64,000 nt of DNA, from NCBI RefSeq assembly GCF_041886205.1, contig NZ_CP169029.1. The stretch is one strand, 5' to 3'. Position 1 is the stretch's first letter; every line of letters begins with the position of its first letter. The stretch is from Escherichia coli. Lineage in GTDB: Bacteria; Pseudomonadota; Gammaproteobacteria; Enterobacterales; Enterobacteriaceae. Shown here one piece after another: positions 2,906 to 23,368 of the stretch. A model generated the notes under the pieces. It saw nothing but the letters and a program-made list of their open reading frames with translations, was not told the DNA's origin and searched no databases. Position numbers and translations under genes: made by a program.

Positions 2906-3288
2906 TCCTGTTCTTTAACTCTTAACGTAAAAACCGCTTCGGCGGCAATGCCGATCAGTTAAGGAGCGGTTGACTGATCCTTAAACTGCGGCACTATAAC
3001 GGCTTCCACTCCAGGGAGCCGTTTTCTTATGCCACTTCTCAATGATCTGTTCGCCGCATGAGCCTCAGCGCTGATGGCGAGGTCGGAGAAAAGGTCCTGT
3101 CGCGCAATGCCATTACTCAGGCCCGGCGACGGGTGGCACCGCGCCTCTGGAATGGCTCTTTCATCAGACGGCACAGATCCGGGGAGCAGAACATTACCCC
3201 AAAGATAGCTGGCGTGTATTACAGCCCTTTGTCGTGCACGGGGGACACCGGATAGCAGGAAGTCTGGGGTATATTGCTGGCCTACAAT

Positions 3289-3566: not shown

Positions 3567-4613
3567 TTAGAACCAAAATTCAAGACCGGCGCGGTAAAAA
3601 TAGTCATTACTTTCTGAATTATAGGCGTCAGTTCGACCAATACGGACATAAGGGAGAAAACCATTTTCCATATTCATCATTAACTGTAAAGACGTCACTT
3701 TATCGGCGGTGTCTTTCTGGGTGACATTGTCTATTTTATAATCATTATTTTTGGCATACCCTAGCTTAGCACCATAGATACCATGCCAGTATTCGCCAAT
3801 TAAACTATAGGCATCCTGGGTGCTTTTAACATGGGTAATAAGGTCGGTCGTTTGACCATTTTTATAGCCCGCGTAAAACCTCAGACCAAGATCTGTAATG
3901 GGTATCTCGAGGCCCAAAACATAACCAGAGGCATCCTCCAGATTGTCATTTAACGTGTCATCGGTCGGTTGAACTGATTTGTTGCGAGTTTCTTCATAAG
4001 CAACATGTACTTTCACTGTAGAGAACGGCGTCCAGGTTACCCGTGAGCTGTAAGTCGTCGATCCAGAAACCGTAGAATCATCGCGATTAACGCTGAGAAC
4101 CACATCAAATCCCCCATAGTCTTTTGTTGCAAGGCTACCGTCATAGCGCACCATATTCGACATGCGATTGCTTTGATGCCAATGAACGTCACCTCCCCAG
4201 TCAAAAACGCGACCGAGACCGGGGTTGGTATAAGGCCAGTCAATGATTTCGTATAACGCCCCCTTCATGCGGCCAAAGCGAAGTTTCCCATACTTACCTT
4301 CAAACCCCACAAAGGTATCAAACTTTCCCAGACCAGAGTCGTTGGCCTCATAACCAACATAACCACTTTCAATCTGGAATATAACATTTACACCTTCAGT
4401 TATTTCTTTGTTCCCGCGAAAACCAATATATGATTCGTTATCGAGAGTATAATCATAATTCCTTTCATTGGCCTGAGTGGTAAAAATGGACATGGCTAAT
4501 TTACCATAGATTTCCAGGTTAAAATCTTTTGGCCCTCCCACTTGCATTGCATTTACTATTGTAGGCATAGTCGTAAGCAAAGAAATGCAAATAATATTAC
4601 TTGTTTTATCCAT
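3567..4613 (-). CDS. Putative outer-membrane beta-barrel porin/channel (signal peptide, C-terminal Phe)
   Basis: 348-aa ORF; N-terminal signal peptide ending ...PTIVNA; alternating hydrophobic/aromatic beta-strand pattern throughout; terminal ...GLEFWF typical of OM beta-barrels; AT-rich coding sequence. Confidence 0.7.
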   Translation of the reverse strand: MDKTSNIICISLLTTMPTIVNAMQVGGPKDFNLEIYGKLAMSIFTTQANERNYDYTLDNESYIGFRGNKEITEGVNVIFQIESGYVGYEANDSGLGKFDTFVGFEGKYGKLRFGRMKGALYEIIDWPYTNPGLGRVFDWGGDVHWHQSNRMSNMVRYDGSLATKDYGGFDVVLSVNRDDSTVSGSTTYSSRVTWTPFSTVKVHVAYEETRNKSVQPTDDTLNDNLEDASGYVLGLEIPITDLGLRFYAGYKNGQTTDLITHVKSTQDAYSLIGEYWHGIYGAKLGYAKNNDYKIDNVTQKDTADKVTSLQLMMNMENGFLPYVRIGRTDAYNSESNDYFYRAGLEFWF

Positions 4614-4833
4614 AAGTTGCCCCAGTAATTTTATATCCGAAAAGAGTAAAACCCGCCTTCATGGAGGGCTGTATTCATTACGCCATGAAAGGGCGTATTA
4701 AAATCTTTAAAAAGAAGTCTTCTGCCAGTCCTGTGAGATTTAAATCCAAAGGCAATAAGACAGAGCCAAAACCAGTGGATGACCACGCCCATAGAACGTG
4801 GTTTTCAGTTGGCAATAAATATTGAAAATAGAA

Positions 4834-6376: not shown

Positions 6377-7921
6377 TTATGTCACAGTAATATGTAAACC
6401 ACTCATCCGCCGGAAAGGGGCGGAAATGGAAGTGATCGTAGGACTGCGGCCGTTAAAGCTATAGTGAATATTTTCCATCCAGGTCTTTTCGATTTCAGAC
6501 TTAATTTTATCGAACACCATCGTTTCCTTTTCTTCAAATGAGGAATAGCTCTGGCCAATTGAAGGTAAATATTCAAACTGAACAGGGAAGCGGACTTCGG
6601 TCTGGTAAGCCCAGTCCGATACCAGCCTTTCTTTTAAGAAACGTTCGATAGCGTCAGCATTATCGCCCATGGTCGAAAAGACAAGGTTCGCTATCCCCGT
6701 ACCTAACGAATTACACGTTGTGTTCCAGCCTGCGTAGCCCTTAATGGTATCGAGTGCGCCGGCTTTATCCAGCGCCCGAATAAGTTCAGTTTCACCGCCG
6801 TTTGACATCGCCACATCGATGACTACCACTGACACCTGCAAAGCTCTGCTGGCAATTTCTTTTGCATAGGTCACCAGGTCACGATGGGTGTAGTAAGTGA
6901 TATTTTTATACTTTGGCTTCCGCACACCGGTATGCAGGTTATAGCCATAGCTAATATCAAAAGCCTCCTGCATTATCTCACCGCACCCATTGATCGCTAA
7001 AACAGGCAGCGAGGCATCATTATCGACCAACGTTATACCCGACGCGGCTGCATACGAACGCAGTGAGTGTATAAAAGGACGATCTTCATAATTCGGGATA
7101 TAGGTTTTAAACAGTTCGTTTGAATAGAGTGTGGTGGCTATAAAATCCTTTTTCCTCATCGACAAATAGGCTTTGGTCAACAATGTGCATCCAGACTCAT
7201 CGGTGCCAGGATGAACAAACACCCGGTCCTGTACCCCAAGCAGGGATATCTTTTCGTAAATGCGTTCCTGATCCTGCATCGTAAAACCAAATTCCGCGGT
7301 ATCGTCCAGCGGGATTATCAGCTGATCGATAATCTTTTCATCAACGAGTTCTATCGCATTCTCAATGAGCTGCAGATTTTTACTTCTGCGCGACAGCCAG
7401 TCGTCAAAGGAAGCAGAATTAATAGCGGAACGATGTGCAAGCAGATGCGCTTTTTCGTCTTCGCTCAGCCCGACACGCTTCTCTTTGTCAGACAGATAAC
7501 CAACCTGAAAAATTGAATGCCCGATATGTGCATAGTAATCCGGTTCTTCTTCACTGGAATTATATTTTGGCGTACGTAGCACCAGTGAAGATGCATAAAT
7601 CTTAAGTGCCGGATAACTTTCTTTCAGTGTTTTAATTTTATTTAACCTTGCTATAAGCTCAGTTAATTCCATCTGATGAATACGCGCGGGAAAAAGTCCA
7701 CCGTAGAGATACATATCCAGGCTGATAATTAACGCATCGGAATCGGCACAGTGGCTGTTTATAAAGTCATCTACAGCCTGATGTGAAGCTGGTTGTTTTT
7801 TGTATCCTAAAATCTCTTTCGCTGGCATTTTTAACGAAATATTGCTGTCCATCGAGGCCAGAGAAATCAGGAAGTCATAGTTATAAGGTCGGATATCCAG
7901 AGGTATGCTAATTATATTCAT
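6377..7921 (-). CDS. Uncharacterised 514-aa protein embedded in PTS operon (possibly DUF4127-like)
   Basis: Long intact AT-rich ORF, tightly spaced between the IIC and IIB genes (15 bp and 24 bp gaps); no signal peptide or TM segments evident; no catalytic motif I can assign by eye. The family guess comes from memory of size and PTS context only. Confidence 0.6.
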   Translation of the reverse strand: MNIISIPLDIRPYNYDFLISLASMDSNISLKMPAKEILGYKKQPASHQAVDDFINSHCADSDALIISLDMYLYGGLFPARIHQMELTELIARLNKIKTLKESYPALKIYASSLVLRTPKYNSSEEEPDYYAHIGHSIFQVGYLSDKEKRVGLSEDEKAHLLAHRSAINSASFDDWLSRRSKNLQLIENAIELVDEKIIDQLIIPLDDTAEFGFTMQDQERIYEKISLLGVQDRVFVHPGTDESGCTLLTKAYLSMRKKDFIATTLYSNELFKTYIPNYEDRPFIHSLRSYAAASGITLVDNDASLPVLAINGCGEIMQEAFDISYGYNLHTGVRKPKYKNITYYTHRDLVTYAKEIASRALQVSVVVIDVAMSNGGETELIRALDKAGALDTIKGYAGWNTTCNSLGTGIANLVFSTMGDNADAIERFLKERLVSDWAYQTEVRFPVQFEYLPSIGQSYSSFEEKETMVFDKIKSEIEKTWMENIHYSFNGRSPTITSISAPFRRMSGLHITVT

Positions 7922-7936: not shown

Positions 7937-9259
7937 TTATTTCTGTTTATTCATGGCGAAAACAAATGGCAGATAAATGATAACCGACAAGCTGATTAAA
8001 AATACGGATAGCACCGCAGCTCTCCAGTCTCCTCCCGTAGCCAGGAAGGCGCTAATCACTGGTGGCGTTGTCCATGGCACAAGAACATATGTATGGTTAA
8101 TCAAATCCATTGCCGTCGCGGCATAAGCAATCACGATGCTGATAATCGGAGTGAATAAAAATGGTACAATTAGCACCGGGTTGAACATAATTGGCAAACC
8201 AAAAATGATGGGTTCATTTATGTTGAACAACATCCCAGGAGTTGCCAGACGAGTAATCGCACGATGCTCTGATTTTTTCGCTGCAATCCATAAAGCAATC
8301 AGTAAGCCGATTGTCTGGCCTCCGCCGCCCATAAATCCAAAGGCATCGATGAACGGTTTTGTGACGATATGTGGGATTTCAAGGCCAGCCTTAAACGCGG
8401 CAGTATTTTCCTGAATCGCCACCAGCAGGGTTGTCTCAGTAATAGGGTACATGATACTGGCACCATGGATCCCTGCCCACCATAATCCGTTTTGCGTCAA
8501 AAGTAGTCCTATTACTCCGCTCAGACCCTGTAAAATATTTTGCAGCGGAGCCTGAATCATCAGAGTAACGATTTCATGTATGTTTTTGTTGAAGAGACTG
8601 CTTAACGACCATGCAAAGAGACTCAGCAAGGTTAACACCAGGATCATCGGTATTAATACGTTAAAGCTCCTTGATACGGAGGGGGGAACTGAATCAGATA
8701 AAGTAATTTTCAATTTAGATGAGGCCGAAACTTTGCGAAAAAGTTCAGTGGAAATAAGCGCCACAAATATGCCTACAAACATACCAGACGCGCCACTTTC
8801 ATTGCCGCTGATTAGCCCCGAAACCTGAAAAACCTCGCCCGTCGGCGCTGTAACGGGAATGGTGACCGGGAACAAAACAAATAAACATGCCAGTGAGAAG
8901 ATGGCATACGTTATCCCATCCTCGCCATAGCTGTTGGCTAATCGATATGAAATCATCACCGTTGCCAGAAAGGCGAGAATATTCAGCGTTCCGTTATAGA
9001 CGCGGATGCCAATTTCCTGTAGGTGGCGAACCCATGCGCCTTCCAGCCCCAGAAAACCGACTAAACCGGATTCGCCGTTGAGCAATACATTATTTATTAA
9101 TATAAATAGAGACGCAGCAATAATTAAAGGCATGAGCGCGACAAATGATTCCCTCACTGCCGAAAGATGTCGCTGTCCTGAAAAATCGCCCGCCCAATTA
9201 GAGATCTTGTCAATGAAAACAAGACCACTCCCACTTTTAATTTTATTGATGAAATTCAT
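7937..9259 (-). CDS. PTS EIIC permease, lactose/cellobiose family
   Basis: 440-aa polytopic membrane protein with multiple hydrophobic segments; first gene of the operon IIC-unknown-IIB-IIA-RpiR. Confidence 0.85.
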   Translation of the reverse strand: MNFINKIKSGSGLVFIDKISNWAGDFSGQRHLSAVRESFVALMPLIIAASLFILINNVLLNGESGLVGFLGLEGAWVRHLQEIGIRVYNGTLNILAFLATVMISYRLANSYGEDGITYAIFSLACLFVLFPVTIPVTAPTGEVFQVSGLISGNESGASGMFVGIFVALISTELFRKVSASSKLKITLSDSVPPSVSRSFNVLIPMILVLTLLSLFAWSLSSLFNKNIHEIVTLMIQAPLQNILQGLSGVIGLLLTQNGLWWAGIHGASIMYPITETTLLVAIQENTAAFKAGLEIPHIVTKPFIDAFGFMGGGGQTIGLLIALWIAAKKSEHRAITRLATPGMLFNINEPIIFGLPIMFNPVLIVPFLFTPIISIVIAYAATAMDLINHTYVLVPWTTPPVISAFLATGGDWRAAVLSVFLISLSVIIYLPFVFAMNKQK

Positions 9260-10710: not shown

Positions 10711-12306
10711 GTGGTAAAAATTTTCATCAAAGAGCGGGGAGATGAAAAAATGATGCAAATATTTAGCGGCGCTTCGTCAGGCGCATGGTTTGAAAAAGCG
10801 CAGCGGTTCGGCAAATCGTTCATGCTGCCGATTGCGGTATTGCCCGCAGCGGGGTTGTTGTTGGGGATTGGTGGGGCTCTGTCGAATCCCAATACGCTGA
10901 CGGCCTACCCATTCTTGAATGTCGACTGGCTGCAGGCAATTTTCACGATCATGACCAGCGCAGGTTCTATCGTGTTTGCCAACCTGTCGGTGCTTTTTGC
11001 GGTTGGTGTTGCCGTGGGACTGGCGAAAACGGATAAAGGCACGGCGGGCCTTGCGGCATTGCTGGCTTTTCTGGTGATGAATGCCACCATCAATGCTTTG
11101 TTAACGCTCAACGGAACGTTGGCGCACGAAAATCCAGGTGCTGTGGGCCAAGGGATGACGCTGGGCATTCAGACGCTGGAAACGGGCGTTTTTGGCGGGG
11201 TCGTGATTGGTCTGGTCACCTGCGCACTGCATAACCGTTTCAATAAAGTCTCACTCCCTCAGTTTCTTGGCTTTTTCAGTGGTTCGCGTTTTGTACCGAT
11301 TATCAGTTCGCTTGCCGCGATTGTAGTGGGGGTGATCATGACGGTGGTATGGCCGCATTTCCAGAAGCTCATTTTTGGACTGGGCGGTCTGGTGGATGCG
11401 ACGGGCTATCTGGGGACGCTACTGTATGGTTTCATTCTGCGTATGCTTGGCCCACTGGGTTTACACCATATCTTTTATTTGCCGTTCTGGACAACAGCGC
11501 TGGGAGGGAGCGAAATCGTCAACGGTCAACTGGTCGAAGGCACCCAGCGTATTTTCTTTGCCCAACTTGCCGATCCGAATACGCAGCAGTTTTATGCCGG
11601 TACCTCGCGCTTTATGTCCGGGCGCTTTATCACCATGATGTTTGGCCTGCTTGGCGCATGCCTCGCGATGTACCACACGGCAAAACCGGAGAAGAGAAAG
11701 CTTGTCGCCGGACTGCTGTTGTCGGCGGCCCTGACTTCTTTCCTGACGGGCATCACTGAGCCTATTGAGTTCTCCTTCCTGTTTGTGGCTCCGGTGTTAT
11801 ATGTCATTCACGCCTTCTTCGATGGTCTGGCGTTTATGATGGCGCATATTTTACATATCACTATTGGGCAAACCTTTTCGGGTGGACTGATCGATTTCCT
11901 CCTCTTCGGCGTGCTACAGGGGGAAGCGAAAACCAACTGGATGTACGTCCCCTTGGTTGGGGTTCCGTGGTTCTTTCTTTACTACTTCACCTTCCGTTAT
12001 TTGATTAACCGTTTTAACTGGCTGACGCCCGGGCGCGAGAACACAGCCCAGGTGGAGTCCGGTCTGCCTCAGAGCGAACGCGCAGCGGCAGTCATCGCCG
12101 GACTGGGAGGCAAAGAGAATCTGGAAGAGGTGGACTGTTGCGCCACACGCTTACGCGTGACGGTGAAAGAGAGCAGCAAGGTAGATGAAGCTGCGCTGAA
12201 AGCGACCGGAGCGCGTGGCGTAATTATTCGCGGCAACGGTGTTCAGGTGATTTATGGCCCGCATGTCACCATAATTAAAAATGAAGTCGAAGAGATCTTA
12301 TCATGA
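10711..12306 (+). CDS. PTS EIICB component, glucose/N-acetylglucosamine superfamily
   Basis: 531-aa ORF; N-terminal IIC membrane domain, C-terminal IIB domain with the phospho-Cys motif ([11 protein letters not shown]). The start may instead be an internal Met at about 10750 (MMQIFSG...). Stop overlaps the next gene's start (ATGA). Confidence 0.85.
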
Positions 12307-19981: not shown

Positions 19982-20245
19982 ATATTGCCGGATAAATTAA
20001 ACGCCTCTGTCAGAAATGATGGGGGCGTTTTTATTTTGCGAGCAGCATTCCTGATTTTAAACGTGAAAATAGCAGAGGGAATCAGCAGGCATAGAATGGC
20101 GTCGGGTGCTTGAGGCTGTCTGGCGTTGAGCATTCGCGAGGTTCCAGATGGACAAAAGCCCCAGGCGATATTTCTATCAACCTGAGGCCAGCGTTCGAAC
20201 CTAAGCAATTCGGATGTTAGTCTCTTCTTTGCAGGGAGGCAAGAC

Positions 20246-20398
20246 ATGCTGACAAAATATGCCCTTGTGGCAATCATCGTACTGTGTTGTACAGTACTGG
20301 GATTCACGCTGATGGTAGGCGACTCGTTGTGTGAGTTGAGTATCAGAGAACGTGGTATGGAGTTTAAGGCAGTTCTCGCTTACGAATCGAAGAAGTAG
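20246..20398 (+). CDS. Hok/Gef-family type I toxin-like small membrane peptide (50 aa)
   Basis: Unlisted small [53 protein letters not shown]: single TM helix followed by the Hok signature ...SLCE(L/I)..R.....E.A...AYES.K; GGAGG RBS upstream (gcagggaggcaagacATG). Confidence 0.7.
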
Positions 20399-20399
20399 C

Positions 20400-20635
20400 C
20401 ACCACGCGGGGGGTAAAATCCCGCGTACTGAATTGTGATGGTTTGGTCTCCTGCACCCTTTTTAATTTATATTGTTTATGTGAATATTATGCCTGTGTTT
20501 ATTATTTATATGTTTTATAGATGAAAACCATTGAATTATTCACAATGTAAATATTTTAATGAACGATATATATCACAGATAATTTTTAATATATGCGTAA
20601 ATATCCTTTAAGTTTTACGAAAGGATAAAAACATT
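20400..20635 (+). promoter_or_regulatory. AT-rich cas3 upstream/promoter region
   Basis: Strongly AT-rich ~230-bp tract immediately upstream of the cas3 start; in K-12 the equivalent region holds the H-NS-repressed cas3 promoter (from memory). No -10/-35 assigned. Confidence 0.45.
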
Positions 20636-22063
20636 GTGACTTTCTTTGATTTCTGGGGAAAAAACCGACGCGGCGAGAAAGAGGGCGGCGACGACTATCA
20701 TCTACTTTGCTGGCATTCGCTGGATGTAGCCGCGATGGGCTATTTAATGGTTAAAAGCAATTGCTTCGGGCTGGCTGACTATTTTCGTCAACTAGGTTTC
20801 GATGATACGGAGCAGGCAGCACAATTTTTCGCCTGGCTATTGTGCTGGCACGATATTGGAAAATTTGCCCGCTCTTTTCAGCAACTTTATCTGCATCCAC
20901 AACTCAAGGTTCCGGAAGGCGCAAGAAAAAATAACGAAAAGATCTCTCATTCAACGCTGGGTTACTGGTTGTGGAATCATTATTTAATTGAATGTGACGA
21001 GTTGCTTCCTTCCTCTTCACTCTCTCCCCGCAAACTTAAACGGGTAATAGCGATGTGGATGCCCATGAGCACGGGGCATCATGGTCGCCCACCTGACCGT
21101 ATTGATGAACTGGATAATTTTCTGCCTGAAGACAAAGTTGCCGCGCGAGATTTTCTCCTTGAAATCAAGTCACTGTTCCCGCTCATAGAGATCCCCACAT
21201 TCTGGGATGATGACGAGGACGTTGAACTTATAAAACAACTTTCCTGGTATATCTCTGCAACCGTCGTACTTGCAGACTGGACAGGATCGTCAACGAGATT
21301 TTTTCCACGCGTCGCACACCCAATGGATATTAAAGATTACTGGCAGAAGGCTTTAGTGCAGGCTCAAAACGCCTTAACCGTCTTTCCTCCAAAAGCAGAA
21401 ACCGCACCTTTCACCGGAATTAATACACTGTTTCCTTTTATTGAGAATCCGACACCGTTACAGCAAAAGGTGCTGGAACTGGATATCAGCCGGCCCGGGC
21501 CACAGTTATTTATTCTGGAGGATGTAACCGGCGCAGGTAAAACAGAAGCGGCGCTTATCCTGGCGCACAGGTTGATAGCTGCGGGGAAAGCTCAGGGGCT
21601 GTTTTTTGGTCTGCCAACAATGGCAACGGCCAATGCCATGTACGATCGGCTGGTCAAAACCTGGCTTGCTTTCTATTCGCCAGAATCCCGCCCCAGCCTG
21701 GTGCTGGCACACAGTGCCCGCACATTAATGGACCGCTTTAATGACTCACTCTGGTCCGGTGATTTAGTCGGGTCAGAAGAACCGGATGAACAAACGTTCA
21801 GTCAGGGATGTGCAGCCTGGTTTGCCGACAGTAACAAGAAGGCTTTACTGGCTGAAATTGGCGTCGGCACGCTGGATCAGGCGATGATGGCAGTGATGCC
21901 GTTTAAACATAATAATCTGCGGCTTCTGGGGTTGAGTAACAAAATCCTGCTGGCTGATGAGATCCACGCCTGTGACGCTTACATGTCGTGCATTCTTGAA
22001 GGGCTGATCGAGCGGCAGGCGCGTGGCGGAAACAGCGTTATTTTGCTTTCTGCTACGTTATCT
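20636..22063 (+). pseudogene. cas3: Truncated cas3 (type I-E): HD nuclease plus first half of helicase core; 3' half deleted
   Basis: ORF begins at GTG 20636; HD motifs (LLCWHSLDVAA, CWHDIGKF), Walker A (VTGAGKTEAA) and DExH box (LLADEIHA) present; coding sequence ends ...NSVILLSATLS and runs directly into a CRISPR repeat at 22064. Intact Cas3 is ~890 aa; only ~476 codons remain. Confidence 0.85.
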
Positions 22064-22214
22064 GTGTTCCCCGCGCCAGCGGGGATAAACCGCCATTCTT
22101 GTTGTCGTTCATCAAGCGCAGGGGGTGTTCCCCGCGCCAGCGGGGATAAACCGGGTAAATAACACAGCGTTTGAAACAGGCAAAAGTGTTCCCCGCGCCA
22201 GCGGGGATAAACCG
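22064..22214 (+). CRISPR. Residual type I-E CRISPR array (iap-proximal): 3 repeats, 2 spacers, no leader
   Basis: Repeat GTGTTCCCCGCGCCAGCGGGGATAAACCG at 22064, 22125, 22186; 32-bp spacers at 22093..22124 and 22154..22185. Differs from the queE-adjacent array repeat at position 2 (T vs A). Confidence 0.95.
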
Positions 22215-22330
22215 GCGCAATACGGTGCGGTTTTCCCGGAAGTAAACCGGGCGCACTGGATGCGATGATGGGTATGACTTAGAATTCCCCGCCCCTGCGG
22301 TAGAACTCCCAGCTCCCATTTTCAAACTCC

Positions 22331-23368
22331 TCAAGACGCCTTCGCCAGCTCCTTCACCAGCGGTAGCATTATCCGCATAACATCACGGCAGCGACGTTCT
22401 ATTCTTCCAGGAAGTGCCTTATCAATATGTTGTTGATTATCCAGTCTTACGTCATGCCAGCTATTTCCCGCCGGGAAGGCAGGTGTTTTTGCGCGTTGCT
22501 GATAACCATCCTTATTCCCAAGATTCCAGTTAGTCGCTTCCACCGAAAGTACAGCAATGCCCGCTTTGTCGAATATTTCTGCGTCATTACAACACCCAGT
22601 GCCTTTCGGATAATTTTTATTCAAACCCGGATTGGTCGTTGCGGCTATTCCGTGACTGCGCGCAATTGCCAGCGCCCTGTCGCGCGTTAATTTCCTTACT
22701 GCTTCAGGGGTTTTTACACCGCTGTTGAAATACAATTTATCGCCAACAATTAAGTTATCGAGATCAATCACCAGCAGCGTATTTTTCTTTTCGGTGTCAC
22801 TCATCCGCTTGAGTAAATTCTCAGCGCCTAATTTCCCTTCCTCTTCGCCGCTGGTCGCCACAAATCGAATACCATACTCGGTAGGCGTATTTTTCAGGCG
22901 TTCTGCCAGTTCCAGCATGACACCTAAACCTGCGGCGTTATCATCCATTCCTTGTAACGTCAGCCCGCCGAGATTGGCATCGGCGTCAGCATCGCTCAGC
23001 GGGGCGTAAGTATCCAGATGCGCCATAATGATGATCTGCTGCGGCGCTTTGCCTTCATGAGCGGCAATCACCGTACTTCCTGTCACGTTATGCCAGTTCT
23101 TGCGATTATCGCGGGCGGTATAAATATACCGACTATTAAATGTCCGAATATCACTGCGATAACCCATTTGCTGAAACTGTTGGCGAATATAATCGGCAGA
23201 TAACATTTCTGCAGGAGTTCCGGTCATGCGTCCCGGAAAGAAAGTAGCAATATGTCGTGCCTGAGTATTAGCAAAATCGCCAGGTTTAGGTAACGAGGCG
23301 TGTACGGGGAGAATAAAGCATACGCCGAGCGCCAGGGCAGCGGTACGGTGGCGCAATGCGGAAAACAT
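22331..23368 (-). CDS. iap: Alkaline phosphatase isozyme conversion aminopeptidase (M28 family)
   Basis: 345-aa ORF MFSALRHRTAALALGVCFILPVHA... with signal peptide and M28-type metal-binding region (IIIMAHLDT...DDNAAG...SGEEEG). Confidence 0.93.
   Translation of the reverse strand: MFSALRHRTAALALGVCFILPVHASLPKPGDFANTQARHIATFFPGRMTGTPAEMLSADYIRQQFQQMGYRSDIRTFNSRYIYTARDNRKNWHNVTGSTVIAAHEGKAPQQIIIMAHLDTYAPLSDADADANLGGLTLQGMDDNAAGLGVMLELAERLKNTPTEYGIRFVATSGEEEGKLGAENLLKRMSDTEKKNTLLVIDLDNLIVGDKLYFNSGVKTPEAVRKLTRDRALAIARSHGIAATTNPGLNKNYPKGTGCCNDAEIFDKAGIAVLSVEATNWNLGNKDGYQQRAKTPAFPAGNSWHDVRLDNQQHIDKALPGRIERRCRDVMRIMLPLVKELAKAS

What the first reader, a model, noticed from the sequence alone, without database searches (positions are those of the whole stretch)
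20636..22214. cas3 truncated after the DExH box and fused in frame to a residual CRISPR array: whole casABCDE12 module and leader deleted
The Cas3 coding sequence is intact for ~476 codons (HD nuclease domain, Walker A, DEIH) and then continues without any gap into a CRISPR repeat at 22064, so the 32 nt before the first repeat (acagcgttattttgctttctgctacgttatct) is cas3 coding sequence sitting exactly where a spacer would be. One explanation is recombination between a self-targeting anti-cas3 spacer and its protospacer, which would delete everything between them and give precisely this structure. However, the triplet 5' of that segment is GAA rather than the canonical AAG PAM, so illegitimate or microhomology-mediated deletion is equally possible. 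The surviving ORF would encode an HD-nuclease/half-helicase with a repeat-encoded tail, downstream of what in K-12 is an H-NS-silenced promoter.
Basis: partly seen in the sequence, partly recalled or inferred. Interest (0 to 1): 0.75.

Follow-up and report, generated by a model that had tools for sequence, protein, structure and literature searches.

The report
cas3 stump joined to CRISPR repeat
This is an inherited, decaying remnant of an E. coli CRISPR immune locus in which about 7 kb were deleted from the middle of cas3 to exactly the first base of a CRISPR repeat.

Summary
Homology to cas3 runs to window base 22063, and an exact 29-nt type I-E repeat starts at 22064. casA to cas2 and the leader are absent.

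The junction is not an artefact: 11 of 5,426 complete E. coli genomes share it. The remnant is a pseudogene. Its native ATG is frameshifted here, and relatives carry stops or an IS1.

It is one of at least 9 independent E. coli cas3-to-repeat-base-1 junctions, and I found 5 more in Salmonella and Klebsiella. Fabre et al. 2012 list 23 Salmonella classes, so the structure is a known kind.

Spacer-protospacer recombination is poorly supported:
- The AAG motif is present at 0 of 14 junctions.
- The 32-mer occurs once per genome and never as a spacer.
- No inversion products exist, against 9 deletion classes.
- All left ends lie in cas3.
- Breakpoints on the cas3 side coincide with those of deletions that do not involve a repeat.

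Microhomology is also rejected, at 0-1 nt.

My preferred explanation is inferred, not shown: the Cas1-Cas2 integrase joined a chromosomal 3' end inside cas3 to the leader-repeat junction. Why only cas3 is affected remains unexplained.

The parts
20104..20261 (+). sok antitoxin RNA of the hok/sok module that lies upstream of cas3 in this locus
   Evidence: Rfam RF01794, 108 bits.
20246..20398 (+). Hok/Gef-family toxin ORF (50 aa)
   Evidence: ORF list. The same gene is annotated in all related loci.
20593..22063 (+). cas3 remnant, a pseudogene. The native ATG is at 20593 and is frameshifted by a 1-nt insertion near 20613-20620. The remnant corresponds to cas3 nt 1-1470 of the intact reference.
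   Evidence: BLAST against intact L008. Frameshift shown. PGAP labels relatives as frameshifted or incomplete Cas3''. NCBIfam finds cas3_HD complete and cas3_core partial.
20636..22162 (+).
22032..22063 (+). The last 32 nt of cas3, sitting in 'spacer position' and preceded by GAA. Not a bona fide spacer.
   Evidence: It occurs once per genome in 400 genomes, and all 40 sampled rows lie in cas3.
22064..22092 (+). CRISPR repeat 1. Its first base is the deletion junction.
22093..22124 (+). Spacer CCATTCTTGTTGTCGTTCATCAAGCGCAGGGG
   Evidence: Found only in the 11 genomes that share this junction.
22125..22153 (+). CRISPR repeat 2
22154..22185 (+). Spacer GGTAAATAACACAGCGTTTGAAACAGGCAAAA
22186..22214 (+). 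CRISPR repeat 3
22282..22310 (+). Degenerate terminal repeat of the array, part of the trailer conserved across E. coli
   Evidence: The local alignment to the repeat matches 14 of 16 core bases at 22285-22300. The trailer matches K-12 and other strains.
22331..23368 (-). iap, the conserved gene flanking the trailer end of the array
   Evidence: ORF list. Annotated in all related loci.
21950..21957 (+). One of three CTGGCTGA copies in the remnant; the others are at 20771 and 21848. This 8-mer is enriched on the coding strand of this cas3 type and lies next to several junctions in other strains.

Best explanation
Shown: the locus is a dead type I-E CRISPR-Cas remnant. One old deletion of about 7.2 kb removed cas3 nt 1471 onward, casA to cas2 and the leader. 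It joined cas3 to the first base of a CRISPR repeat. The event was inherited by a lineage now seen in 11 complete genomes, and the remnant has since decayed.

Also shown: this is one member of a recurrent class. In every member the cas3 coding strand is joined to repeat base 1, in one direction only, without a PAM and without microhomology.

Inferred: the precision at repeat base 1 points to the Cas1-Cas2 integrase. The bond formed is exactly the first chemical step of spacer integration, in which a 3'-OH is joined to the 5' end of the repeat on the leader side. I propose that a 3'-OH end of the chromosome's own plus strand inside cas3 was used in place of a prespacer end. Such an end could come from a break, a resected end or a stalled nascent leading strand. 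This would be a half-site integration. Replication of that strand would then fix a deletion of everything between.

The breakpoints on the cas3 side appear to be set by local break or pause hotspots, because other deletion types in the locus share them.

Not explained: why the donor end is always in cas3.
For: Precision and recurrence:
- There are nine independent E. coli junctions, at cas3 nt 1263, 1353, 1470, 1486, 1555, 1569, 1671, 2046 and 2168. Five more come from Salmonella and Klebsiella-like genomes. All are at repeat base 1 with 0-1 nt of microhomology.
- Fabre 2012 lists 23 Salmonella classes that share the same repeat boundary.

No PAM:
- AAG at 0 of 14 junctions and AWG at 1 of 14.

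One direction only:
- 0 inversions against 9 deletion classes in 5,426 genomes.

No precursors:
-.

Hotspots shared with deletions that do not involve a repeat:
- 1466 to cas5, 1557 to cas2 and 2037 to cas2 lie 4, 2 and 9 nt from junctions at repeat base 1 (p = 0.001-0.014).

Contrast class:
- Microhomology deletions in the same locus end inside cas2 or inside a repeat, with 2-5 nt of shared bases.

Old, inherited event:
- The pre-junction sequence is identical across the 11 genomes, and the arrays differ only by loss or duplication of units.
Against: - No experiment shows that Cas1-Cas2 can use a chromosome-attached end in vivo. Its known substrates are fragments of about 33 bp.
- The model does not by itself explain why all left ends fall in cas3 and none in casA to cas1 (Fabre Table 3).
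- It does not explain why type-A and E1 left ends avoid the first ~1 kb of cas3.
- Final structures cannot distinguish a half-site event from integration of a short cas3 fragment followed by very rapid recombination.
- The inversion and PAM arguments assume such products would be equally viable and unselected.
- The CTGGCTGA and Chi associations were noticed post hoc.
Confidence: 0.4

Rival explanations
1. A self-targeting spacer was acquired from cas3. It was inserted next to the leader in the same orientation as the gene. It then recombined with its protospacer, deleting everything between them.
For: It predicts exactly this final structure: cas3 sequence in spacer position followed by a repeat. 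Self-derived spacers are acquired in naive adaptation, and a protospacer hotspot lies upstream of the array (PMC10011333). One junction, GF131, has an ATG PAM.
Against: - AAG at 0 of 14 junctions. If 35-50% of naive spacers carry AAG, the chance of 0 of 14 is 0.002 or less.
- The window's 32-mer is single-copy in all 400 genomes that hold it.
- At most 20 of 2,792 genomes have any second copy of cas-operon sequence, and no E2-type or cas-less genome has one.
- Naive spacers come from both strands, yet 0 inversion products exist against 9 deletion classes.
- Left ends fall only in cas3, although the array-proximal cas genes should be the hotter source (Fabre Table 3).
- cas3 breakpoints coincide with those of fusions that cannot involve spacers.
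- An intact relative of class C has an unrelated spacer at the position in question.
Confidence: 0.15
2. Break, resection and end-joining without integrase chemistry. A double-strand break occurs in the cas operon. RecBCD resects both ways until Chi or a protein roadblock is met. The IHF/Cas1-Cas2 complex or the repeat hairpin stops resection at the leader-repeat boundary, and the ends are then ligated.
For: - A correctly oriented Chi at cas3 nt ~2531 is conserved in 8 of 9 genera.
- All 9 E. coli left ends, and by my estimate 11 of 12 type-A Salmonella left ends (assuming a ~36-nt numbering offset and that LT2 carries the diarizonae Chi), lie 130-1,480 nt beyond it.
- The only opposite-strand Chi, at operon nt 8202, lies just before the cas2 hotspot (8321-8330) and the first repeat at 8651.
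- cas3 hotspots are shared among different right-hand partners.
Against: - A roadblock should give ends scattered over several bases. It should not give the same phosphodiester in more than 35 independent events with no microhomology.
- The other correctly oriented Chi sites, at 3815 and 6558, should yield left ends in casA to cas7, but none was found for this junction type.
- No junction sits at a Chi.
Confidence: 0.15
3. Ordinary illegitimate recombination, meaning replication slippage or microhomology-mediated end joining between cas3 and the array.
For: Deletions of this kind do occur in the locus. casA is joined inside a repeat through ATAAA, and X-to-cas2 fusions use TA, TAC or TTA.
Against: - The window junction has 0 nt of microhomology, and the class as a whole has 0-1 nt.
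- The right end is always repeat base 1, which has a chance of about 1 in 61 per event.
- There is no similarity between the leader end and the cas3 ends.
Confidence: 0.05
4. The truncated ORF is a selected, functional stand-alone HD nuclease or half-helicase with a repeat-encoded tail.
For: The frame from the internal GTG is open for 508 codons, and the HD domain is complete. Related ORFs are common in public assemblies, with clusters of about 600-770 sequences.
Against: - The native start is frameshifted in the window.
- Sister genomes are annotated as frameshifted or with an internal stop, and one has an IS1 inside the remnant.
- Remnant length varies from about 300 to 2,600 nt across classes.
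- The tails differ with the reading frame.
Confidence: 0.03

Closest known systems
Salmonella 'deletions of the Cas machinery', classes deltaA1-12 and deltaF1-12 (Fabre et al. 2012, PLoS One, PMC3356390, Table 3)
   Same: The deletion starts at the leader-side end of the last CRISPR1 repeat. It removes the leader and all cas genes and ends at a variable point inside cas3, leaving a 5' remnant. It recurs many times independently.
   Different: The species and the cas3 breakpoint differ. In what I read, that paper records coordinates for typing purposes and offers no mechanism. It contains no analysis of PAM, orientation or microhomology.
E. coli O156:H8 strain 13E0767 deletion (Geue et al. 2017, Front Microbiol, PMC5359238)
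   Same: It involves the same E. coli locus and the same kind of junction, from cas3 codon 683 to the boundary of a CRISPR2.1 repeat. This is my class B.
   Different: It is a different, independent breakpoint: cas3 nt 2046 against 1470 in the window. The paper describes it only in passing.
cas3 pseudogene as the sole remnant in Shigella flexneri and some Salmonella (Touchon and Rocha 2010, PMC2886076)
   Same: [quoted passage not shown]
   Different: That paper has no junction-level description. Its 'anti-CRISPR' spacers concern the I-F (Ypest) system, not I-E cas3.
Half-site integration intermediate of Cas1-Cas2 spacer acquisition (reviewed in PMC10011333)
   Same: The bond is the same: a DNA 3' end joined to the 5' end of the repeat at the leader side, and it is PAM-independent for that end.
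   Different: The known substrate is a free fragment of about 33 bp, and the intermediate is completed by a second attack. Here the 'prespacer' would be the chromosome itself and the outcome a 6-9 kb deletion. This has not been demonstrated.
Adjacent deletions made by transposable elements (own knowledge: IS1 and IS10 intramolecular strand transfer)
   Same: One end is fixed to the nucleotide and the other is variable. The events are unidirectional and lack homology.
   Different: In IS deletions the fixed end is the attacking 3'-OH. Here the fixed end would be the target and the variable end the attacker. No IS lies at the junction.

Membership tests
Type I-E Cas3 (NCBIfam PRK09694 / NF007248 equivalog) | The whole protein scores above the curated cut-off (569 bits), with the HD nuclease plus a complete SF2 helicase core and C-terminal domain | tested here: not met
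   The score is 260 bits and covers only profile positions 6-480 of 878. cas3_core scores 98.5 against a cut-off of 102.45. cas3_HD scores 91 against 43 and is complete.
Type I-E CRISPR array (E. coli CRISPR2.1) | 29-nt repeats of the I-E consensus spaced 61 nt apart, lying between the cas genes and iap | tested here: met
   There are three identical repeats at 22064, 22125 and 22186, a degenerate terminal repeat, and iap downstream.
Type I-E CRISPR array (E. coli CRISPR2.1) | An AT-rich leader with an IHF site, and cas1-cas2 upstream of the first repeat. These are needed for transcription from the leader and for adaptation. | tested here: not met
   cas3 sequence abuts repeat 1. In intact loci the leader ...GTATGCTTAGT precedes it.
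Bona fide spacer (for 22032..22063) | Flanked by repeats on both sides | tested here: not met
   The upstream flank is continuous cas3 sequence.
Bona fide spacer (for 22032..22063) | The protospacer is preceded by an AAG or ATG PAM | tested here: not met
   The triplet is GAA. Across 14 junctions of this kind, AAG appears 0 times and ATG once.
Bona fide spacer (for 22032..22063) | The same sequence is found as a spacer in some array | tested here: not met
   It occurs once per genome in 400 genomes, and all 40 sampled rows lie in cas3. This covers complete E. coli genomes only.
Recurrent cas3-remnant / repeat-boundary deletion (Fabre 2012 deltaA/deltaF type) | The right end lies exactly at the leader-side boundary of a CRISPR repeat | tested here: met
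Recurrent cas3-remnant / repeat-boundary deletion (Fabre 2012 deltaA/deltaF type) | The left end lies inside cas3, leaving a 5' remnant. All other cas genes and the leader are absent. | tested here: met
Microhomology-mediated deletion | At least 2 nt shared between the two parental sequences at the junction | tested here: not met
   Native cas3 continues CAACAG where the repeat reads GTGTTC, giving 0 nt shared.
Product of Cas1-Cas2 half-site integration (proposed) | A DNA 3' end is joined to repeat base 1 on the strand that reads leader to repeat | tested here: met
   The polarity and position fit. This is compatibility with the model, not proof.
Product of Cas1-Cas2 half-site integration (proposed) | Formation depends on the Cas1 active site and on IHF | not testable with these tools
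   This needs genetics.

The most novel reading that the evidence does not exclude
The cas3-to-repeat-base-1 junctions in E. coli, Salmonella and Klebsiella are scars of an undescribed side reaction of the CRISPR integrase. Cas1-Cas2 would transfer a chromosomal 3' end arising in cas3 onto the leader-repeat junction. The immune system would thereby delete its own genes, in a single direction and without any spacer intermediate. On this reading the loss of type I-E systems is partly self-inflicted by the adaptation machinery, and cas3 DNA is a privileged donor for reasons still to be found. Candidate reasons are proximity to the H-NS-bound cas3-casA region, fork pausing, and Chi or CTGGCTGA hotspots.
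Probability: 0.33. Interest if true: 0.75.

Novelty: new member of a known kind. Interest (0 to 1): 0.5.

Why it matters
For this window alone it matters little. The strain simply lacks a working type I-E system and keeps two orphan spacers.

The class it belongs to is more interesting. More than 35 independent deletions in three genera hit the same phosphodiester at the start of a CRISPR repeat. They always begin in cas3, always run in the same direction, and show no PAM, no microhomology and no spacer precursor.

That pattern makes a long-standing question directly testable: how and why enterobacteria keep losing their H-NS-silenced CRISPR-Cas systems. A simple junction-PCR and deep-sequencing assay in wild-type, Cas1-dead, ihf and recBCD backgrounds would do it.

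If the integrase is responsible, CRISPR adaptation carries a built-in risk of self-deletion. That would affect models of CRISPR maintenance and the use of Cas1-Cas2 as a molecular recorder.

It also has a practical side. Typing schemes and annotation pipelines meet these 'Cas3''' stumps often, with protein clusters of about 600-770 sequences.

Tried and rejected
- Repeat-32mer-repeat query to find a true spacer. The output was swamped by repeat matches and was uninformative. I replaced it with the bare 32-mer search and the whole-operon search.
- Partial matches to class A spacers. These turned out to be chance hits in the other array (CRISPR2.2-3, queE-ygcE).
- Looking for intact relatives that share class A spacers, to see what preceded spacer 1. 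None exist among complete genomes. For class C a relative exists, but it cannot distinguish the models.
- Chi at the junctions. None is present.
- Microhomology with the leader end (...TTAGT) or with the repeat start. Absent.
- Retrieving Salmonella LT2 to read the PAMs of Fabre's 23 classes. The genome-contig scan did not return LT2. I used truncated Cas3 proteins with repeat-encoded tails and their contigs instead.
- My provisional reading that Salmonella type F cas3 is inverted. I dropped it, because type F fragments such as P0030 are N-terminal.
- Promoter and terminator scan of the remnant. Nothing above the shuffled expectation.
- CTGGCTGA as a universal determinant. Other genera have only 0-2 copies in cas3, so at most it modulates breakpoints in Escherichia.
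- Literature search for a published spacer-protospacer recombination model for this deletion. No paper in the library matched the recombination phrases.
Full report
**What is in the window**

The window carries the E. coli cysJIH, hok/sok, cas3, CRISPR2.1, iap and cysDNC neighbourhood. An open frame runs from a GTG at 20636 to 22162. Three identical 29-nt type I-E repeats start at 22064, 22125 and 22186, and a degenerate terminal repeat lies near 22282.

Megablast and BLASTN against intact alleles show that cas3 homology stops exactly at 22063. That is cas3 nt 1470 of the intact reference AF3 (locus L008). The reference continues CAACAG where the window has the repeat start GTGTTC. About 7.18 kb is missing: the rest of cas3, casA, casB, cas7, cas5, cas6e, cas1, cas2 and the leader.

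The break lies just after helicase motif III (SAT), about 30 codons beyond DEIH. NCBIfam sees a complete HD domain and half a helicase core, well below the Cas3 equivalog cut-off. The native ATG at 20593 is put out of frame by a 1-nt insertion, and the long ORF begins at an internal GTG.

**It is real, old and decaying**

The identical junction, with identical sequence for at least 45 nt upstream, is present in 11 of 5,426 complete E. coli genomes. Their hosts include a bear, humans, a pig and cattle. The strains are wlxctx60 (100% identical to the window), 6EVA, AH02, AH04, CT01, CX08, CX12, VE-T9, LHM10-1, CP52E and XJ5.2.

Their arrays differ only by loss or duplication of internal units. 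Their spacers occur in no genome that has an intact cas operon. PGAP marks the remnants as frameshifted or carrying an internal stop, and XJ5.2 has an IS1 inside the remnant. A 508-aa version with an intact start is the representative of a cluster of 609 sequences in public assemblies. All of this indicates one ancestral event followed by neutral decay, not a selected new protein.

**It belongs to a recurrent, already recorded kind**

I used a chimeric query made of the cas3 5' end plus iap, so that only shortened loci align in one piece. It found 75 complete genomes with a cas3 stump close to iap.

Sequence inspection gave eight independent classes in which cas3 runs straight into repeat base 1. 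A GTDB contig gave a ninth:

| Class | Last cas3 nt | Example strains |
|---|---|---|
| I | 1263 | SCPM-O-B-8794 (GTDB contig) |
| F | 1353 | GF4-3 |
| A | 1470 | this window |
| G | 1486 | TCM3e1 |
| D | 1555 | MS20657, N17 |
| C | 1569 | STEC384 |
| H | 1671 | A36, A20 |
| B | 2046 | 13E0767, JNE23-001, the O169:H41 strains |
| E | 2168 | GF131 |

Truncated Cas3 proteins with repeat-encoded tails (VFPAPAGINR, CSPRQRG or VPRASGDKP) led to five more junctions. These came from Salmonella, including subsp. arizonae, and from Klebsiella-like genomes. A probable sixth comes from a more distant genus with a different repeat.

The literature already records the structure:
- Fabre et al. 2012 tabulate 12 type-A and 11 type-F Salmonella deletions. 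All start at the same repeat boundary and all end inside cas3.
- Geue et al. 2017 describe class B in O156:H8.
- Touchon and Rocha 2010 note cas3-only remnants.

I found no proposed mechanism in those papers or in full-text searches.

**Test of the spacer-protospacer recombination idea**

Five results count against it.

1. PAM. A same-orientation spacer would have its PAM at the three bases before the 32-mer. The 14 triplets are TCG, ATA, GAA, GCT, CCA, CGT, GTG, ATA, ATG, GGT, CTT, GCG, CGA and CTG. That is 0 AAG and 1 ATG. Naive adaptation yields up to 50% AAG and primed adaptation more than 90% (PMC10011333).
2. Precursors. The window's 32-mer occurs exactly once in each of the 400 genomes that have it, and all 40 sampled rows lie in cas3. 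A search with the whole 8.6-kb operon found 2,812 places in 2,792 genomes. At most 20 genomes therefore hold any extra copy, and no E2-type or cas-less genome holds one.
3. Orientation. Naive spacers come from both strands, so about half of such recombinations should invert the segment. A query that aligns in one piece only on an inversion found none in 5,426 genomes, against nine deletion classes.
4. Position. No base-1 junction has its left end between operon nt 3,200 and 7,300. All 23 Salmonella classes end in cas3.
5. Shared hotspots. Deletions that cannot involve a spacer break cas3 at nearly the same places. These run from 1466 to cas5 (WL297), 1557 to cas2 (AR_0069) and 2037 to cas2 (NT1F10). 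They lie 4, 2 and 9 nt from base-1 junctions (p about 0.001-0.014).

**Test of the microhomology idea**

The 14 junctions share 0-1 nt with the repeat start, and none shares bases with the leader end. By contrast, genuine microhomology deletions in this locus look different:
- EC596 joins casA to the inside of a repeat through ATAAA.
- Three independent deletions from cas3, casA and casB share one right end in cas2 (operon nt ~8330) through TA or TAC.
- PI12 uses TTA.

Random end points would hit repeat base 1 about once in 61 events.

**Most likely mechanism (inferred)**

The bond seen is the coding-strand 3' end of cas3 joined to the 5' end of the repeat at its leader side. This is the product of the first step of Cas1-Cas2 integration, which uses the non-PAM end and yields a half-site intermediate.

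A chromosomal 3'-OH in cas3, captured in place of a prespacer end, would give a junction with five properties after replication. It would be exact to the nucleotide, PAM-less, free of homology, strictly directional, and have a variable left end. That is what is observed.

From my own knowledge of the K-12 map, replication passes this locus in the direction of cas transcription. A stalled nascent leading strand would therefore have the right polarity.

A rival without integrase chemistry is RecBCD resection to Chi plus a roadblock at the leader. It gains some support from a conserved Chi at cas3 nt ~2531 and from the single opposite-strand Chi at operon nt 8202. It does not explain single-nucleotide precision or the absence of left ends beyond the other Chi sites.

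**What remains unexplained**

- Why the donor end is always in cas3.
- Why type-A and E1 left ends avoid the first ~1 kb of the gene.
- Whether the 8-mer CTGGCTGA matters. It has six copies on the coding strand of E1 cas3, against about 0.03 per kb elsewhere, and lies 1-6 nt from five of the nine E. coli junctions. It is rare in other genera, and I noticed it post hoc.

**Verdict**

The class as a whole deserves an experiment, because it may reveal self-deletion of CRISPR-Cas by its own integrase.

Noticed in passing
window 20771, 21848, 21950; L008 cas3 nt 178, 1255, 1357, 1560, 2175, 2419 and casA nt 2874: The 8-mer CTGGCTGA occurs 6-7 times on the coding strand of Escherichia E1-type cas3, in two reading frames (LAD/LAE and WLT). 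It is absent from the remaining 5.8 kb of the operon, and the background in the window is about 0.03 per kb per strand. Five of nine E. coli junctions lie 1-6 nt from a copy. Other genera have 0-2 copies.
   Followed up: partly
L008 cas3 nt 2531 and operon nt 6558; same positions in L024-L030, L033: A correctly oriented Chi (GCTGGTGG) sits at cas3 nt ~2531-2537, encoded by Ser-Trp-Trp. Another sits near operon nt ~6500. Each is conserved in 8 of 9 genera, down to 51% protein identity. Opposite-strand Chi sites are almost absent from the operon.
   Followed up: partly
L001 (4451), L039 (~4022), L040 (~5257), L018 (4079); operon nt 8321-8330 of L008: Three independent deletions (cas3 1557, casA 3215, casB 4457) share the same right end about 70 nt into cas2 (...TA|CTGGAAGTGCG). 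A fourth ends 9 nt away. They leave a shortened cas2 ORF plus an intact leader. This is a second, unexplained right-end hotspot.
   Followed up: partly
L051 (WL297) 1229; L004 (WCHEC020031) 12658; proteins P0004-P0007: In-frame fusion ORFs arise from internal deletions. They include cas3-cas5e in WL297 and cas3-cas7e in WCHEC020031, where 701-aa products (P0004, P0005, P0007) are named Cas7 by NCBI. By spread sampling the cas3-cas7e type is present in roughly 180 complete genomes. There is also a 704-aa Cas3-Cas1 fusion (P0006).
   Followed up: partly
L001 1429-2541; L018, L020, L039, L042, L043 (about 240 nt upstream of cas3): IS421 (IS4 family) is inserted between hok/sok and cas3 in many unrelated strains, in either orientation. 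In IAL7250 a second copy sits inside the array.
   Followed up: no
L031 (Klebsiella spallanzanii) 2192: A solitary I-E repeat-like sequence lies about 34 nt after the end of an apparently full-length cas3. It is 6.3 kb upstream of the regular array.
   Followed up: no
L050 (metagenome scaffold, ERZ23491059) about 1890-1915: A distantly related Cas3 (44% identity) is also cut off after its LLADVGVGT motif. It runs into a different I-E-type repeat (…GTTCCCCACACACGTGGGGATGAACCG). This suggests the same kind of junction occurs outside the Enterobacteriaceae examined.
   Followed up: no
L041 (EC596) 4767-4808: casA is joined to the last 8 nt of a repeat (ATAAACCG) through an ATAAA microhomology, followed by a normal spacer. 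It serves as a useful natural contrast to the base-1 junctions.
   Followed up: yes
L034 (Citrobacter sp. MAG) 11731-11951: cas3 appears to be truncated near codon 600 and followed by about 220 nt that end in an intact leader. This resembles the E. coli cas3-cas2 fusions, but in another genus.
   Followed up: no
window 20104-20398: A complete hok/sok-type toxin-antitoxin module lies directly upstream of the cas3 remnant (sok RNA by Rfam, plus a 50-aa Hok ORF). No deletion class examined here extends into it.
   Followed up: no
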